Positions 3,958 through 8,628 are shown, counted from the first letter of the stretch. The stretch: 24,000 nt of DNA from Vibrio celticus (GCF_024347335.1 NZ_AP025464.1:982517-1006516), one strand, 5' to 3'. Notes: generated by a model not told the origin, from the letters alone. Numbers and translations: made by a program.

Positions 3958-5216
3958 TTACTTACAAGTCTCTTTTGACCAATTCACACCATCATCTGAA
4001 CACTCAAATAGACTTGTTCCATTTTGGTAATGATAACCTTTAGTCCAGCTACCATGAGAATCTCTAGACGTTATCGTTTGAGTATAATCAAACGGCGTAT
4101 TTTCAATGTACGCATACTTATGTCGGCTCCAGCTGTCAGAACCATATGAACTGTTGTCATTAAAATCTACCGATAGGTAGTTGAGTGCATCAAAGTCGCT
4201 GCGCGACACACTATCCAATGAATCACCGAGATTAACCCACTCTGGATGTGGTGCGTTATTCTCAAAATTAAATTTCGCTTGTACTTGGGTAAACTGATCT
4301 TTGTAGTCACCGACAAGATCTGCCGACAAGGTTTGCATGAATCCAGCACCGACATTTTGACGTGAACAACTGTCCCAATCAGGTTGTTTAGACCAACCAC
4401 GGTTCAACACACCAAAGGTCGTGAGTGAGTTAGGTAAAACCTGTTGCTTGATGGTCTCTTTCACCGAACATGAATATTCCGTTCCATCACTATCCAATGA
4501 GAACCAAGCTTCTTTGTCATATTCCAAGCCATTTTTCTTTTGGCTATTACGCTCAATATGCTTATTTAACGCCAGTTCGGTCTGCAAATCAGCGGACACT
4601 TCATGTTCAATAACAATTAGCTTGTCCGCGGTCATTACTGTTTTAACTTTATACCACTTATTAATTTCGTTCTTCTTAGTGTAATCCCAATGCTCCCAGT
4701 AATAATCAACATAGGCTTGCTGGGCTGTTGGGTTCTCTTTTTGAATCTCTTTCGTCTCTTGATAGGACTTTTTAATGGCAGGCATCATCTTCTGCGCTAA
4801 ATCGTAGAGCTCAGTGTTTTGATCTTTAACGAAATCACCATACAAGTCCTCGACTGCGATGTTGTATCGGTTCGCAATTCGGAAGTCATGCTCTTTCACA
4901 TTTTGGATAATGCTATTTTGGGTATTCACGGCTTGCTTCAAAGCAGAGCAACTGTTTAAACCACCTTTATACAAGTCGGCTTGGATCTCATTCCATAACA
5001 CGGTCGTAAGTGGCGTAGTCGACTTAATTTCTTGCTCAGAACTCACCGTCATGACTGGCGGAAATATTAACTGATAAGGTTCAGTAATCGGTGAGTTTGG
5101 GCTGTCTGCATCAATAGCGCCTACTGGCACATTCAATACGATGGGTGCATAGTCCATACAGTCTGAGTTAGAGCCCGTCAAAGATAGCTCATAGCTGCCC
5201 TCATGGTCCGTGACAC
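3958..5216 (-). pseudogene. Lipoprotein gene, C-terminal portion (separated from its 5' end by IS insertion)
   Basis: The ORF track starts at a TTG at 5181, but the frame stays open up to the IS boundary (…VTDHEGSYELSLTGSNSD…). There is no start codon or signal peptide of its own. It continues the frame of 8417-8628 once the IS and one target duplication are removed. Confidence 0.85.
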
Positions 5217-5382
5217 CAGGGCAAGATCATGAAAACCCCTTATGAAATAAGGGATGACGTGAAGTCATATTTTCACTAATTAGATACTGAAGTCACAATA
5301 ATCTCAATACATCCAAGATCGATTTGATGATCAGATTTAGGTGTGATCATATACTGTTTTTTAACAGCAGATATTTAGCCTA

Positions 5383-6295
5383 ATGAACGGATTAAGCCTT
5401 TTGGACCATATTTCAGTTATTCGAGACCCTCGCCAAGCCTGGAAAATAGAGCACACGCTAACCGACATTATCTTCTTAACAATTGCAGCAGTGATTGCTG
5501 GTGCTGAAGGTTGGGAGGATATTGAAGATTTTGGTGAAGATAACTTGGAATGGCTTAGACAGTATGGTGATTTCAAACAAGGCATACCAGTACACGATAC
5601 CATTGCCCGAGTTATCAATCTTATTTCCGCCAAGCAACTGCAACGATGCTTTACTGCGTGGATGAAAGACTGTCATGAGGTGACTGAGGGTGAAGTGATT
5701 GCTATCGACGGCAAAACTCTCAGAGGCACATACAACAAAGACAAGCGTTGTGGTGCAATCCATATGGTTAGTGCGTTTAGTGCTGCAAATCAAGTTGTGT
5801 TAGGGCAGGTTAAAACAGCAGACAAAAGCAATGAAATCAAAGCGATCCCCGAACTGCTTGAAATGCTTTCCTTACGAGGTTGCTTAGTGACGATTGATGC
5901 TATGGGATGCCAGAAGGATATAGCTGAAAAGATAGTCGGCCAAGATGCAGATTACCTCTTAGCGGTAAAAGGTAATCAAAAACGATTGGAGCAAGCGATT
6001 AGCCAAGTCTTTAATTCTAGTATGCTTAATAGTTTTGAAGGTGATAAATACGTCACTCAAGAGAAAGGACATGGTCGTACAGAAACGCGTTTGAGTATGG
6101 TTGTTCACAATACAGATTTCTTAGGCGATATAGCGCTTGATTGGGCGGGACTCTCCACCATTGGTATGGTCGTTTCAATTCGTCAAGAAGGTGATAAGCC
6201 AGCAGAAACAATGCAAATCAAGCACTACATAAGCTCAGCAAAACTGACGGCTAAAGCTTTACTAGAGAGCACGCGAGCACATTGGAGCATTGAAA
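5383..6295 (+). CDS. ISAs1-family transposase, exon 1 (interrupted by the intron)
   Basis: The N-terminus is MNGLSLLDHISVIRDPRQAWKIEHTLTDIIFLTIAAVIAGAEGWEDIEDFG, followed by AIDGKTLRG and TIDAMGCQKDIA, all typical of ISAs1 transposases. Family-like sequence ends at …RAHWSIE and the reading then runs into intron sequence. Confidence 0.85.
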
Positions 6296-6863
6296 GTGTG
6301 CCGCAGGCACATAGGTTAGCAGCATAAGGATGTGTTTCTAGTCTTGAGCATAAGCTCATGAAGAGATGGTGGTAGGTCCACCGAAGTCTGCTGTCGGAAG
6401 CTGGCTTCAAACCACTTCAAGTGGCTGTCATTAAGAGTGATGGTCATAAGCGTTGAAGTAAAAGTACGAACTCAAGTTCGGCAGGTAGGGTACAAAGAGA
6501 TGAGTTATAGCGAACCTATGTTGACGCGTCGTAATCCAGAGACTGACATCAAAATCGAGGGCGTTTCTATCTCTCGAGATAAGTTTGCAGGTTAATTCCG
6601 AATGCTGTGTAAGCGGTGTCCGGCGTATAGTGGGCATGACTTTGTATCGGGCTCTTTGTGGGAACTGCGGGAACCAGTCATCACAATGCTAAGGAAGAAG
6701 TACAAGTAACTGAATTTATGAGTATGAGAGTACCGATGTGTGATACTGGGACGGAGCAACTCGTAGTAGTGTTGAAGTGTTTGTAATGAACATGGAGCGA
6801 AGGGGTTGCGTCAAGCTGCTTGCATGTTTAGCTCAACTACCAAATGGTAGGAGGAAGCTATAG

Positions 6864-8111
6864 ATGGAAGCAAAACCATTTACCATTTCAAAGTGGGCAG
6901 TGAAGCACGCCTACGAATTAGTTAAAGCTAATAAAGGAAGTGCAGGAGTTGATAATCAATCTATTGAAGGTTTCGAAAGAAATCTAAAAGGTAATCTTTA
7001 TAAGATCTGGAATCGATTATCTTCTGGCACCTATTTTCCACCTCCAGTTAAAGCGGTAAGTATACCGAAGAAAAGTGGAGGAGAACGGATTTTAGGTATA
7101 CCAACGGTAAGCGATCGGATCGCACAAATGGTCGTAAAACTTGAATTTGAGCCAAAGGTTGAGCGGATCTTTTTGCCAGACTCATATGGGTATAGACCTA
7201 ATAAATCAGCGCTTGATGCTATAGGTGTCACTCGTAAGCGATGTTGGAACTATAACTGGGTACTTGAGTTTGATATTAAAGGGCTGTTCGATAACATTCG
7301 GCATGATCTGTTACTTAAAGCGGTATATAAACACACCAATCTCACTTGGGTAAGGTTGTATATAGAGCGCTGGCTAGTAGCACCGATGCAAATGGAAGAT
7401 GGCGACCTCAAAACTAGGCAGATGGGGACACCGCAAGGTGGCGTTATTAGCCCTGTATTAGCGAACCTATTTCTACATTATGTTTTTGATAAATGGCTAC
7501 AAAAGCATTTCCCCAAAACATTATGGTGCCGTTATGCTGATGATGGTTTGGTTCATTGTAATACTGAAAGCGAAGCTCAGCAGATGCTTGAGGCTCTGAA
7601 AGCTCGTTTTGAGGATTGTGGACTTGAGCTCCACCCCACAAAAACCAAAATAGTATATTGTAAAGATGGGAGTAGAAAAGGTGATTCGGAACATACCAGT
7701 TTCGACTTTCTTGGCTATACCTTTATGCGTAGGGTTTGCAAAAACTGGAAACGCAATAGCTTATTTTTAAGCTTCTCGCCGGCAGTGAGCAAATCAGCAT
7801 TAAAATCAATGAGATTGAAAATTAGAAAGTTACGAGTGCGGATGAAAACAGAACTTAGCATAGCGCAAATGGCTAAGTGGTTAAACCCAATGATAAACGG
7901 GTGGATCAACTACTATGGTCGCTACTATCGCTCGGCACTGTATGGCATGTGCAGGCACGTAAATAAAGCTCTGGTTCGTTGGGCGAGACGAAAGTTTAAG
8001 CCATTACGACGTCACAAAACACAAGCAATGAGATTCTTGGAAAGGATTTCAGAGCAGAACCCCCACTTGTTTGCCCATTGGAAGCAAGGAATGTTAGGTG
8101 CGTTTGCTTGA
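6864..8111 (+). CDS. Group II intron-encoded reverse transcriptase/maturase (no endonuclease domain)
   Basis: The 415-aa ORF has RT motifs (KKSGGERILGIPTVSDRIAQ, YGYRPNKSA, FDIKGLFDNI, GTPQGGVISPVLANLFL, RYADDGLVHC). It also has a maturase X region (INGWINYYGRYY). The protein ends soon after the X domain and has no HNH or Zn-finger segment. Confidence 0.92.
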   Translation: MEAKPFTISKWAVKHAYELVKANKGSAGVDNQSIEGFERNLKGNLYKIWNRLSSGTYFPPPVKAVSIPKKSGGERILGIPTVSDRIAQMVVKLEFEPKVERIFLPDSYGYRPNKSALDAIGVTRKRCWNYNWVLEFDIKGLFDNIRHDLLLKAVYKHTNLTWVRLYIERWLVAPMQMEDGDLKTRQMGTPQGGVISPVLANLFLHYVFDKWLQKHFPKTLWCRYADDGLVHCNTESEAQQMLEALKARFEDCGLELHPTKTKIVYCKDGSRKGDSEHTSFDFLGYTFMRRVCKNWKRNSLFLSFSPAVSKSALKSMRLKIRKLRVRMKTELSIAQMAKWLNPMINGWINYYGRYYRSALYGMCRHVNKALVRWARRKFKPLRRHKTQAMRFLERISEQNPHLFAHWKQGMLGAFA

Positions 8112-8114
8112 TGG

Positions 8115-8185
8115 GAGCGGTATGAATTGAGAGGTTCACGTACCGTTCTGCGAGAGGCTGTGGGGGAAGCTCCCACGGTCTACTC
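8115..8185 (+). ncRNA. Group II intron domains V and VI
   Basis: Domain V is 8115-8148, GAGCGGTATGAATTGAGAGGTTCACGTACCGTTC. It has a 10-bp lower stem containing the AGC triad, a 2-nt bulge (8137-8138), a 4-bp upper stem and a GAGA tetraloop. Domain VI is 8152-8185, a long helix with unpaired A8182 as the candidate branch point. Confidence 0.85.
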
Positions 8186-8188
8186 ACC

Positions 8189-8406
8189 ATCAGATGCACT
8201 GGCGATTAGACGTAGGTTTTAAAGAAGATGAATGTCGGATTCGTCGAGAGCAAGCTGGTGAGAATTTAGCAGTTATAAGACATATAGCTTTAAATCTGCT
8301 GACGGAAGAAACCAGCTTCAAAGCAGGGATCAAAAGAAAGCAGAAAAAAGCAAACCGTAGCAATAGCTACCTTTCGCAAGTCCTTGCAGTACAAGGGGCT
8401 TCGTAA
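8189..8406 (+). CDS. ISAs1-family transposase, exon 2
   Basis: It reads (N)QMHWRLDVGFKEDECRIRREQAGENLAVIRHIALNLL…, the conserved ISAs1 C-terminal block. The stop at 8404-8406 lies inside the right inverted repeat. Exons 1 and 2 total 1131 nt, giving 376 aa. Confidence 0.85.
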
Positions 8407-8416
8407 TCTTGCCCTG

Positions 8417-8628
8417 TCCGTGACACTGCTAGGCTCACCTTCATCTAATACGCCATTATAATTGATATCTAGAAACGCGGTCGCCCCGGAAATATACCCG
8501 TCAATGGCGACACCTTGTAAGGTTCTCGTTTGAGGAGCAGGAGCACTTGTGTTGCTACCACCGCCTCCTCCGCCACAAGCCGTAAGGCAACCAGCTATAA
8601 GTGCGATAGAAATAAGCCTAAGTTTCAT
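8417..8628 (-). pseudogene. Lipoprotein gene, N-terminal portion (signal peptide and lipobox)
   Basis: The ATG at 8628 has an AGGA ribosome-binding site. The sequence MKLRLISIALIAGCLTAC-GGGGGGSN… has lipobox LTAC. Native sequence runs to …EGEPSSVTD and then enters the IS inverted repeat. The remaining residues of the 112-aa track ORF are encoded by the IS. Confidence 0.85.

What the first reader, a model, noticed from the sequence alone, without database searches (positions are those of the whole stretch)
3958..8628. Three-level nesting: a lipoprotein gene split by an ISAs1-family IS that is itself split by a group II intron
The ORF at 8628-8417 (minus strand) has a lipoprotein signal peptide and reads …EGEPSSVTD into the IS end. 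The ORF ending at 3958 is open upstream to 5216 and reads VTDHEGSYELSLTGSN…. The 10-mer tccgtgacac occurs at 5207-5216 and at 8417-8426, directly outside imperfect inverted repeats that begin CAGGGCAAGAT. Removing 5217-8426 gives one uninterrupted 1461-nt (486-aa) ORF. Inside the 3200-bp insert, 1893 nt are a group II intron, which leaves about 1307 bp, a normal ISAs1 size. The order of events can be read directly from the sequence.
Basis: seen in the sequence. Interest (0 to 1): 0.7.

Follow-up and report, generated by a model that had tools for sequence, protein, structure and literature searches.

The report
Lipoprotein gene split by intron-bearing IS
A Vibrio celticus lipoprotein gene is cut in two by a jumping gene (an ISAs1-family insertion sequence) whose own transposase gene carries a self-splicing group II intron; the nesting is real and neatly documented, but it is an ordinary kind of event already known from E. 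coli.

Summary
An exact 10-bp direct repeat (TCCGTGACAC, 5207-5216 and 8417-8426) flanks a 3200-bp insert (5217-8416) with CAGGGCAAGAT terminal inverted repeats. Deleting the insert plus one repeat copy restores a 486-aa lipoprotein ORF. Intact, syntenic 486-488-aa orthologues (90-94% aa, up to 95.6% nt) exist in V. splendidus, V. crassostreae, V. atlanticus and others, with the target present once.

The insert is a 1307-bp ISAs1-family IS. Intron-free copies (94.5-94.9% nt) occur on a Proteus plasmid and in V. crassostreae. The IS is interrupted at 6296-8188 by a 1893-nt group II intron with Rfam D1-D4 and D5-D6 matches and an intact RT-maturase without an endonuclease domain. In-silico splicing restores a 376-aa transposase.

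This is not new in kind. The intron is 68-70% identical to E. coli class D introns (E.c.I2-like, E.c.I9) that also live in ISAs1-type "Rhs" ISs, at other positions. Near-identical intron copies (97-100%) sit at the same HWxIEN codon in at least three diverged ISAs1 elements, which indicates retrohoming.

Interest is low to moderate.

The parts
8417..8628 (-). 5' fragment of the lipoprotein gene: codons 1-70 plus 2 nt. Signal peptide with lipobox LTAC; Cys18.
   Evidence: Cys18 is invariant in 69 homologues. Several sources name homologues 'Lipoprotein'.
8417..8426 (.). Right copy of the 10-bp target-site duplication TCCGTGACAC.
   Evidence: Relatives with the empty site carry this sequence once.
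5217..8416 (+). ISAs1-family insertion sequence, 3200 bp including the intron and 1307 bp without it.
   Evidence: Full-length intron-less copies: L008 (94.5% nt) and L009 (94.9% nt).
5217..5241 (+). Left terminal inverted repeat (CAGGGCAAGATCATGAAAACCCCTT).
   Evidence: The same end is present in L008 and L009.
8392..8416 (-). Right terminal inverted repeat (reverse complement CAGGGCAAGATTACGAAGCCCCTTG).
5383..6295 (+). Transposase exon 1: codons 1-304 plus the first nt of codon 305. Contains invariant D109, D172 and E304. Unspliced read-through ends at 6327 (314 aa).
6296..8188 (+). Group II intron, 1893 nt, 5' GUGUG, sense orientation relative to the transposase gene.
   Evidence: Rfam. Intron-less IS copies read ...CATTGGAGCATTGAAA|ATCAGATGCACTGG... 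contiguously. An E. coli homologue is 69.7% identical over the full length.
6368..6486 (+). Intron domain I-IV segment matching Rfam group-II-D1D4-2.
   Evidence: 93.8 bits (gathering 36), E = 2.9e-18.
6555..6577 (+). Putative EBS1 hairpin. The loop TTTCTAT (6564-6570) is complementary to the last 7 nt of the 5' exon, ATTGAAA (6 of 7).
   Evidence: The homologous loops in the two E. coli introns are complementary to their own, different 5' exons (7/7 and 5/6). Inferred, not tested experimentally.
6864..8111 (+). Intron-encoded RT-maturase, 415 aa, YADD motif present, no endonuclease domain.
   Evidence: RVT_1 1.6e-43, GIIM 1.6e-15. (TIGR04416, 415.5 bits, cutoff 300). (closest solved structures are group II intron RTs).
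8113..8188 (+). Intron domains V and VI. The candidate branch-point A is at 8182 (-7 from the 3' splice site; placed by eye, not a tool result).
   Evidence: RF00029, 55.7 bits (gathering 40), model positions 1-77/77, ending at 8188.
8189..8406 (+). Transposase exon 2: the rest of codon 305 to the stop. Joined to exon 1 it gives ...HWSIEN|QMHWRLDV... and 376 aa.
   Evidence: P0121 is 97% identical, 376 aa and uninterrupted.
5207..5216 (.). Left copy of the 10-bp target-site duplication TCCGTGACAC.
3958..5216 (-). 3' fragment of the lipoprotein gene: from the duplicated VTD (codons 69-71) to codon 486 and the stop at 3958-3960.
   Evidence: A terminator-like hairpin lies at 3877-3909 just downstream.

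Best explanation
**What the structure is.** In Vibrio celticus (CECT 7224-type genome, probably chromosome 2), a 1307-bp ISAs1-family insertion sequence transposed into codon 68-71 of a 486-aa outer-envelope lipoprotein gene of unknown function. It duplicated 10 bp of target and inactivated the gene. The IS lies antisense to the gene.

**The intron.** The IS transposase gene carries a 1893-nt group II intron related to the E. coli class D introns. The intron-encoded protein (IEP) has RT and maturase domains but no endonuclease domain. The intron sits in the sense orientation, inside codon N305, immediately after the invariant E304 of the HWSIEN motif.

**Shown.** The duplication, the empty site in relatives, the exact IS ends, the exact intron ends, the restoration of both ORFs in silico, and the presence of the same intron at the same codon in other ISAs1 elements.

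**Inferred.**
- The intron arrived by retrohoming. Its RNA recognises the conserved DNA that encodes HWxIEN, largely through EBS1-IBS1 pairing.
- Because the IEP lacks an endonuclease domain, priming probably uses nascent DNA at a replication fork, as described for the class D intron RmInt1 (my own knowledge of the literature).
- Splicing would restore a full-length transposase mRNA. Unspliced message gives a 314-aa C-terminally truncated protein.
- The most likely order is IS insertion first and intron homing into that copy second (about 60:40).
For: **Duplication and ORF repair.**: exact 10-bp repeat, inverted repeats, repaired 1461-nt ORF.

**Empty site in relatives.**
- 207 homologues; full-length 486-488-aa orthologues at 90-94% aa identity.
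- DNA colinear across the junction at 92-95.6%, with the target present once.

**Intron identity.**
- RF01999 93.8 bits; RF00029 55.7 bits, ending at 8188.
- IEP matches RVT_1, GIIM and TIGR04416.

**IS identity and boundaries.**
- spliced transposase matches NF033564 over positions 1-314/314 at 434 bits.
- intron-less IS copies of 1307 bp share the same ends and have a contiguous intron site.
- D109, D172 and E304 are invariant in 25 ISAs1 transposases.

**Related introns in E. coli.**
- E. coli introns are 67.5-69.7% identical and sit inside ISAs1-type ISs at two other positions.
- PMC3522654 main text and its Table S2: E.c.I2 and E.c.I9 are class D introns that target the 'Rhs IS (= ISEc1-5)' at two positions.

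**Same intron in other Vibrio ISs.**
- the same intron (97-100% nt) lies at HWNIEN|QQHW in a metagenome-run contig and at HWGIEN|SLHW in many V. breoganii loci. The host ISs are only about 66% identical to this one.

**EBS1 covariation.**: the EBS1 loop co-varies with each intron's own 5' exon.

**Independent assembly support.**: draft contig FLQZ01000150.1 of V. celticus is 100% identical to window 8047-10482. It independently supports the right-hand gene-IS-intron junctions.
Against: - Splicing, retrohoming and transposition were not and cannot be tested here.
- EBS1-IBS1 pairing with this IS has one internal mismatch (T·T at -5). The V. breoganii exon ATAGAGA pairs 7/7, so this copy is a slightly off-consensus target.
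- No convincing EBS2-IBS2 pair was found.
- The intron ends in CC rather than the usual AY. The E. coli homologue shares this, so it is probably lineage-typical.
- The two other intron-less IS copies examined lack clean target duplications.
- The left junction at 5216/5217 has no independent assembly support beyond the duplication itself.
- The order of the IS and intron events is not fixed by the data.
Confidence: 0.93

Rival explanations
1. Same structure, opposite order. The intron was already in the IS, splicing supplied transposase, and the 3.2-kb IS+intron composite transposed as one unit into the lipoprotein gene.
For: - The intron is in the sense orientation. Its IEP ORF and domains V and VI are intact, and splicing restores the full 376-aa transposase.
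- The IS ends are intact and the duplication is perfect.
- In V. breoganii, intron-bearing ISAs1 copies lie next to many different genes. That pattern fits either composite transposition or efficient homing.
Against: - In the V. celticus draft assembly the intron forms its own contig with only 1 nt of flank on each side (L013). The unique contig L026, by contrast, reads through the whole 228-bp right arm of the IS into the intron.
- This suggests the intron is multi-copy in different exon contexts while this IS arm is single-copy.
- That favours a resident intron homing into a newly arrived IS. It is an inference from assembly behaviour, not a direct count.
Confidence: 0.35
2. Assembly artefact: repeats (IS, intron) were wrongly joined into a unique gene during assembly, so the nesting does not exist in the cell.
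For: Both elements are repeats that break short-read assemblies: contigs L011-L013 and L026 all end inside them.
Against: - A perfect 10-bp duplication of a sequence that is single-copy in relatives, sitting exactly at canonical IS ends, is not what a mis-join produces.
- An independent draft assembly contains the right-hand junctions at 100% identity. Another contig contains the 5' exon-intron junction (L012).
Confidence: 0.02
3. The two flanking ORFs are separate genes, or a gene that was already decayed, and the IS simply sits between them.
For: No Pfam or NCBIfam family covers the protein, so there is no curated model of its full length.
Against: - 207 homologues were found, most of them 476-500 aa and covering both halves.
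- Residues on both sides of the junction are conserved (E65, P66, T70, G74 invariant in the closer 14-sequence set).
- Synteny is maintained.
- The repaired ORF has no other lesion, and it gives a confident AlphaFold model (pLDDT 85.9).
Confidence: 0.01

Closest known systems
E. coli group II intron E.c.I2 (bacterial class D) in the Rhs-associated IS (H-rpt / ISEc1-5, ISAs1 family)
   Same: - The intron found in E. coli KE47 and 208 other complete genomes is 69.7% identical in nucleotide sequence over the whole length (1891 vs 1893 nt).
- It shares the 5' GUGUGCCGCAGG start and the ...CUACUCACC 3' end, and its IEP has the same RT-maturase architecture.
- It is likewise sense-oriented inside an ISAs1-family transposase gene, within the same conserved HW.(I/V)EN..HWRLDV block.
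- Leclercq & Cordaux 2012 (PMC3522654) list E.c.I2 as class D, 1891 bp, targeting the Rhs IS.
   Different: - The insertion point is 22 nt downstream (HWRLD|V rather than IEN|Q).
- The EBS1 loop differs at 5 of 7 positions to match that target.
- The host genus and the IS species differ.
- That the KE47 intron is E.c.I2 itself is inferred from its length and location, not checked against the reference sequence.
E. coli group II intron E.c.I9 (class D), in the Rhs IS 'at another position'
   Same: It is 67.5% identical over the first ~1370 nt (78% over the last ~120 nt), lives in an ISAs1-type IS, and has the same overall architecture (PMC3522654).
   Different: It is inserted 15 nt inside the left inverted repeat of the IS (CAGGGGAAGATCACG|), not in the transposase ORF.
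RmInt1 of Sinorhizobium meliloti (class D) in ISRm2011-2
   Same: It is a bacterial class D intron whose IEP has no endonuclease domain and whose natural homing site lies inside an insertion sequence. It is the experimental model for endonuclease-independent, replication-fork-primed retrohoming (my own knowledge of the literature; not checked here).
   Different: The host IS belongs to a different family, and no sequence comparison was made here.
ISAs1-family insertion sequences of Vibrionaceae and relatives (for example the copy in V. crassostreae 9CS106 and on Proteus terrae plasmid pSDQ8C180-1)
   Same: These copies are 94.5-94.9% identical over all 1307 bp, with the same CAGGG... ends and a 376-aa transposase.
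   Different: They lack the intron. The two examined show no clean target duplication, whereas this copy has a perfect 10-bp one.

Membership tests
ISAs1 family insertion sequence | Transposase matches the family model over its full length, with the DDE_Tnp_1_assoc + DDE_Tnp_1 domain architecture. | tested here: met
   The spliced 376-aa protein scores 433.9 bits against NF033564 (cutoff 70) over positions 1-314/314. PF13808 and PF01609 also match.
ISAs1 family insertion sequence | Length about 1.2-1.5 kb with a single ORF, terminal inverted repeats beginning CAGGG, and a target duplication of about 8-10 bp (ISfinder description, recalled from my own knowledge). | tested here: met
   1307 bp without the intron. 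Inverted repeats begin CAGGGCAAGAT (11/11 terminally). Exact 10-bp duplication. Ends are shared with independent copies.
ISAs1 family insertion sequence | Conserved acidic catalytic residues (DDE). | tested here: met
   D109, D172 and E304 are invariant in an alignment of 25 family members at 54-97% identity. Their assignment as the catalytic triad is by analogy and not shown.
ISAs1 family insertion sequence | Transposition activity. | not testable with these tools
   Only indirect evidence is available: a perfect target duplication and an otherwise undamaged target gene suggest a recent event.
Group II intron | Catalytic domain V and domain VI with a bulged branch-point adenosine near the 3' end. 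| tested here: met
   RF00029 scores 55.7 bits (gathering 40) over model positions 1-77/77 at 8113-8188. The candidate branch-point A at 8182, 7 nt from the 3' end, was placed by eye.
Group II intron | Domain I-IV RNA scaffold. | tested here: met
   RF01999 (group-II-D1D4-2) scores 93.8 bits (gathering 36) at 6368-6486.
Group II intron | Boundary consensus: 5' GUGYG and 3' AY. | tested here: inconclusive
   The 5' end GUGUG fits. The 3' end is ...CACC rather than AY. The E. coli homologue has the same ending and E.c.I9 ends ...CACU. The boundaries themselves are fixed by intron-less IS copies.
Group II intron | Intron-encoded reverse transcriptase/maturase within the intron. | tested here: met
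   TIGR04416 scores 415.5 bits (cutoff 300). RVT_1 and GIIM match and YADD is present.
Group II intron | EBS-IBS pairing with the flanking 5' exon. | tested here: inconclusive
   EBS1 pairs 6 of 7 here, and the loop co-varies with the exon in the two E. coli relatives (7/7 and 5/6). EBS2 was not identified.
Group II intron | Self-splicing and retromobility. | not testable with these tools
   Indirect evidence only: copies 97-100% identical sit at the same codon of at least three ISAs1 elements that are about 66% identical to one another.
Bacterial class D group II introns | Phylogenetic placement of the IEP and RNA with class D; IEP without an endonuclease domain. | tested here: inconclusive
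   The intron is 67.5-69.7% identical in nucleotide sequence to E. coli introns listed as class D in PMC3522654 Table S2. The IEP ends after domain X (415 aa). No phylogeny was built.
Bacterial lipoprotein (Lpp-type signal peptide) | N-terminal signal peptide ending in a lipobox [LVI][ASTVI][GAS]C. | tested here: met
   MKLRLISIALIAGCLTAC has the lipobox L-T-A-C. Cys18 is invariant across 69 homologues. The match was read by eye; no dedicated predictor was available.

The most novel reading that the evidence does not exclude
The intron-bearing IS is still mobile, and its transposition is gated by intron splicing. The intron sits immediately after the invariant E304 codon, so only spliced mRNA yields full-length transposase. 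The 3.2-kb composite then moves as a unit and carries the intron to new replicons. The intron lineage (this intron, E.c.I2 and E.c.I9) would thus be specialised on ISAs1-family elements as vehicles, having evolved at least three different homing sites within them.
Probability: 0.3. Interest if true: 0.45.

Novelty: new member of a known kind. Interest (0 to 1): 0.25.

Why it matters
On its own this is a clean example of nested mobile DNA and of recent pseudogene formation in a Vibrio accessory locus.

A modest additional point concerns the intron lineage:
- A lineage shared between Vibrio and E. coli appears dedicated to ISAs1-family insertion sequences.
- It uses three different homing sites in them.
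- The Vibrio member is found, nearly unchanged, at the same conserved HWxIEN codon in at least three diverged IS species.

That makes it a convenient natural system for two questions: how an endonuclease-less group II intron re-targets by changing EBS1, and whether intron splicing limits IS transposition. It does not open a new category.

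Tried and rejected
- **EBS2-IBS2 search.** Scanning domain I for 6-nt pairings with exon positions -15 to -6 gave no pairing at homologous positions in the Vibrio and E. coli introns. No claim is made.
- **Replication-strand test.** GC skew of the non-mobile parts of the window is only -0.03 on the + strand. This is too weak to say whether the intron lies on the strand expected for fork-primed retrohoming.
- **Function of the disrupted lipoprotein.**
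  - No Pfam or NCBIfam match.
  - The AlphaFold model is confident (pLDDT 85.9), but Foldseek against the PDB found nothing below E = 0.03, only weak beta-barrel look-alikes at TM 0.27 or less.
- **Transposase against the PDB by sequence.** No relatives, so the DDE assignment rests on invariance only.
- **Exact look-up of the 314-aa unspliced transposase product.** Not on record.
- **P0132, a 320-aa truncated transposase.** It turned out to have no intron nearby.
- **Megablast of the intron against plasmids.** It found only 85 nt of domains V/VI in a mis-filed E. coli chromosome. That hit led to the E. coli homologue.
- **Dai & Zimmerly 2002 papers (PMC1370338, PMC101233).** Not held. UMN026 (NC_011751) is not in the E. 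coli collection. The identification of the KE47 intron as E.c.I2 is therefore inferred from length and location.
- **The 12-mer at window 374-385.** Considered as a possible further IS target or remnant and rejected: there are no IS ends there and it lies inside a conserved reductase ORF.

Full report
**1. The observation.**
TCCGTGACAC occurs at 5207-5216 and at 8417-8426.
- Immediately inside these copies the insert begins CAGGGCAAGAT... and ends ...ATCTTGCCCTG. The ends match 11/11 terminally and about 21/25 with one gap.
- The minus-strand ORF starting at 8628 encodes MKLRLISIALIAGCLTAC...EGEPSSVTD and then runs into IS sequence. The frame that stops at 3958 is open back to 5216 and begins VTDHEG....
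- Deleting 5217-8426 gives one 1461-nt ORF of 486 codons.
- The repeat formally extends one base further (G5206/G8416), but G8416 is the last base of the symmetrical IS end. The duplication is therefore 10 bp, or 11 bp at most.
- The 10-mer also occurs at 374 (as the 12-mer TCCGTGACACTG) inside an aldo/keto reductase ORF, with no IS end nearby. I treat that as coincidence.

**2. Level 1: a split gene with an empty site elsewhere.**
- They align straight through the junction. E65, P66, T70 and G74 are invariant in the closer 14-sequence set.
- Genome loci from V. splendidus, V. crassostreae, V. atlanticus, V. satsumensis and others encode the whole protein contiguously.
- The repaired DNA is colinear with those loci at 90-93% over 5.8-7.1 kb. 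It is colinear at 95.4-95.6% with two further genomes.
- At the junction the relatives read ...AGTAGTATCACGGACGATGAA..., so the target is present once.
- The protein has a lipobox (LTAC) with invariant Cys18 and further invariant cysteines. It has no Pfam or NCBIfam family.
- It gives a confident AlphaFold model (pLDDT 85.9): a small N-terminal beta domain, a helical region and a large C-terminal beta-sheet domain. No solved-structure fold match was found. Its function is unknown.

**3. Level 2: the IS.**
- Joining 5383-6295 to 8189-8406 gives a 376-aa protein. It matches the NCBIfam ISAs1 transposase model over its full length (433.9 bits, cutoff 70) and has the DDE_Tnp_1_assoc + DDE_Tnp_1 architecture.
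- A 97%-identical, uninterrupted 376-aa transposase exists in V. crassostreae 9CS106.
- DNA of the intron-less IS (1307 bp) aligns end to end with a copy on a Proteus terrae plasmid (94.5%) and with the V. crassostreae copy (94.9%).
- Both copies start CAGGGCAAGATCATGAAAA and end ...AATCTT(G/T)CCCT(G/A). Both read ...CATTGGAGCATTGAAA|ATCAGATGCACTGG... without interruption at the intron site.
- This fixes the IS as 5217-8416 and the intron as 6296-8188 to the base.
- Those two copies show no clean duplication; the copy in the window has a perfect one.

**4. Level 3: the intron.**
- Rfam finds a group II D1-D4 segment at 6368-6486 (93.8 bits). It finds domains V-VI at 8113-8188 (55.7 bits), and that model ends exactly at 8188.
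- The intron starts GUGUG and ends ...CUACUCACC. I read a bulged A by eye 7 nt from the end.
- Its ORF (6864-8111, 415 aa) is an RT-maturase: RVT_1, GIIM and TIGR04416 at 415.5 bits, with YADD present. It has no endonuclease domain.
- The intron is in the same orientation as the transposase gene. It splits codon N305, directly after E304.
- In an alignment of 25 ISAs1 transposases, D109, D172 and E304 are invariant. Unspliced mRNA would give a 314-aa product lacking the last 72 residues.

**5. What is already known.**
- The intron has a full-length homologue in 209 complete E. coli genomes (69.7% nt, 1891 nt). There it is annotated as ltrA flanked by two halves of an 'ISAs1 family transposase' pseudogene.
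- In E. coli it sits 22 nt further downstream in the same conserved block (HWRLD|V).
- Leclercq & Cordaux 2012 (PMC3522654) state that E.c.I2 and E.c.I9 'specifically target Rhs IS (= ISEc1-5)' and 'Rhs IS at another position'. They list both as class D, and E.c.I2 in UMN026 spans 1891 bp.
- E.c.I9 in ATCC 8739 is 67.5% identical to the Vibrio intron. It lies 15 nt inside the left inverted repeat of an ISAs1-type IS.
- Group II introns inside ISAs1-family elements are therefore a described pattern, and the same paper describes targeting of IS elements by group II introns as a widely used strategy.

**6. Evidence for retrohoming.**
- The hairpin at 6555-6577 carries the loop TTTCTAT, complementary to the last seven exon bases ATTGAAA at six of seven positions.
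- At the homologous loop the E. coli introns have CGTCCAG (7/7 with their exon CTGGACG) and CATGAT (5/6 with ATCACG). The stem shows compensating changes. I could not identify EBS2.
- The exact IEP occurs in V. celticus on three contigs. Related versions occur on a 3.62-Mb V. celticus replicon and in V. breoganii.
- A contig from a public sequencing run carries the intron (99% nt) in a different ISAs1 transposase gene at HWNIEN|QQHW.
- Eight V. breoganii loci carry it (97-98% nt) at HWGIEN|SLHW, in an IS only about 66% identical to this one, next to eight different sets of genes.
- The V. breoganii exon ATAGAGA pairs 7/7 with EBS1 (one G·U pair). It may be the cognate site and the present IS a near-cognate one.

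**7. Order of events.**
- Nesting proves that the IS entered the gene and that the intron entered the IS lineage. It does not show which came first at this locus.
- In the draft V. celticus assembly the intron is a separate contig with one flanking base on each side (L013).
- The unique contig FLQZ01000150.1 (100% identical to window 8047-10482) reads through the whole right arm of the IS and 142 nt into the intron.
- This suggests a multi-copy intron and a single-copy IS arm. That mildly favours IS first, intron second (about 60:40). A genome census or an IS-only allele in another isolate would decide.

**8. Context.**
- The lipoprotein gene lies downstream of an SgrR-type regulator gene (551 aa in relatives). 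The pair is accessory: several relatives with an identical neighbouring FAD protein lack both genes.
- In this genome the regulator gene is also destroyed. An IS4-family element (10291-11677) cuts it at about codon 68.
- A second, inverted copy of that IS (15935-17320, 99.4% identical) carries the exchanged flanks. IS-A is flanked by AAACTGGCTA and TAGCGGCCAT; IS-B, read in the same orientation, is flanked by TAGCGGCCAT and AAACTGGCTA.
- The N-terminal 67 codons of the regulator lie at 15734-15934 on the other strand, with SQF duplicated.
- IS-free relatives join window ~15934 directly to 10290.
- The 4.26-kb segment 11678-15934 has therefore been inverted by recombination between the two IS4 copies. 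Both genes of the module have been knocked out by different ISs.

**9. Verdict.**
- It is a new member of a known kind: a class D-like group II intron in an ISAs1-family IS, inside an ordinary IS-disrupted gene.
- The only mildly new element is a third homing site for this intron lineage within ISAs1 transposase genes, and its spread across diverged IS hosts in Vibrio.

Noticed in passing
window 10291-11677 (+) and 15935-17320 (-): Two inverted copies (99.4% identical) of an IS4-family element have exchanged 10-bp flanks (AAACTGGCTA / TAGCGGCCAT). This is the signature of inversion of the intervening 4.26 kb (11678-15934: DUF6279, RNase T, PCC and DEAD-box helicase genes) by recombination between the copies. 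IS-free relatives join ~15934 directly to 10290.
   Followed up: yes
window 8826-10290 (-) and 15734-15934 (+): The SgrR-type regulator gene next to the lipoprotein gene (551 aa in relatives) is split at about codon 68 by the IS4 element and the inversion. The residues SQF are duplicated at both break points. Both genes of this two-gene accessory module are therefore inactivated, by two different IS families.
   Followed up: yes
window 11688-11697 and 15915-15924: Both original IS4 target sites carry the same 10-mer (GAGGGAAGCT / AGCTTCCCTC) directly next to the duplicated target. This could reflect target-site preference or a small repeated element.
   Followed up: no
window 10390-11664 and the matching part of 15935-17320: The IS4 transposase reading frame is broken in both copies: two ORFs of 188 and 154 aa with stops between them, and copy B has an extra 1-bp deletion. 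The pair may be non-autonomous or decayed, yet it still mediated an inversion.
   Followed up: partly
window ~15432-15505: A nitroreductase gene (222-223 aa) lies between the regulator and the DEAD-box helicase in relatives. It is missing here: about 970 bp are replaced by about 70 bp. One relative (L022) also lacks it.
   Followed up: partly
loci L015-L024 compared with window 3958-10290: The lipoprotein + SgrR-like gene pair is present in some Splendidus-clade genomes (L020, L021, L024) and absent from others (L015-L019, L022, L023). All of these encode an identical 543-aa FAD protein next door, so the pair is a variable accessory insert.
   Followed up: partly
window 374-385: The IS target 10-mer plus two more bases (TCCGTGACACTG) recurs inside the aldo/keto reductase ORF. 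The expected number of such matches in 24 kb is about 0.003. No IS ends are nearby, so it is probably coincidence.
   Followed up: partly
window 8185-8188; L010; L014: The intron ends ...CACC rather than the usual AY. The E. coli homologue has the same ending and E.c.I9 ends ...CACU. This looks like a lineage trait rather than damage.
   Followed up: partly
L027-L034 (V. breoganii) versus window 6289-6295: The intron's EBS1 loop (TTTCTAT) pairs perfectly (7/7, one G·U) with the V. breoganii IS exon ATAGAGA, but only 6/7 with this window's ATTGAAA. The V. breoganii-type IS may therefore be the cognate homing site and this IS a near-cognate one.
   Followed up: partly
repaired protein from window 3958-5216 + 8427-8628: The disrupted gene belongs to a widespread gammaproteobacterial lipoprotein family (about 480 aa, with Cys18 and six further invariant cysteines). 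The family has no Pfam or NCBIfam model. It gives a confident AlphaFold model with no solved-structure fold match.
   Followed up: partly
window 1571-1605: A 35-bp near-perfect palindrome (91%) lies downstream of the SpoU methylase gene. It is probably a bidirectional terminator.
   Followed up: no
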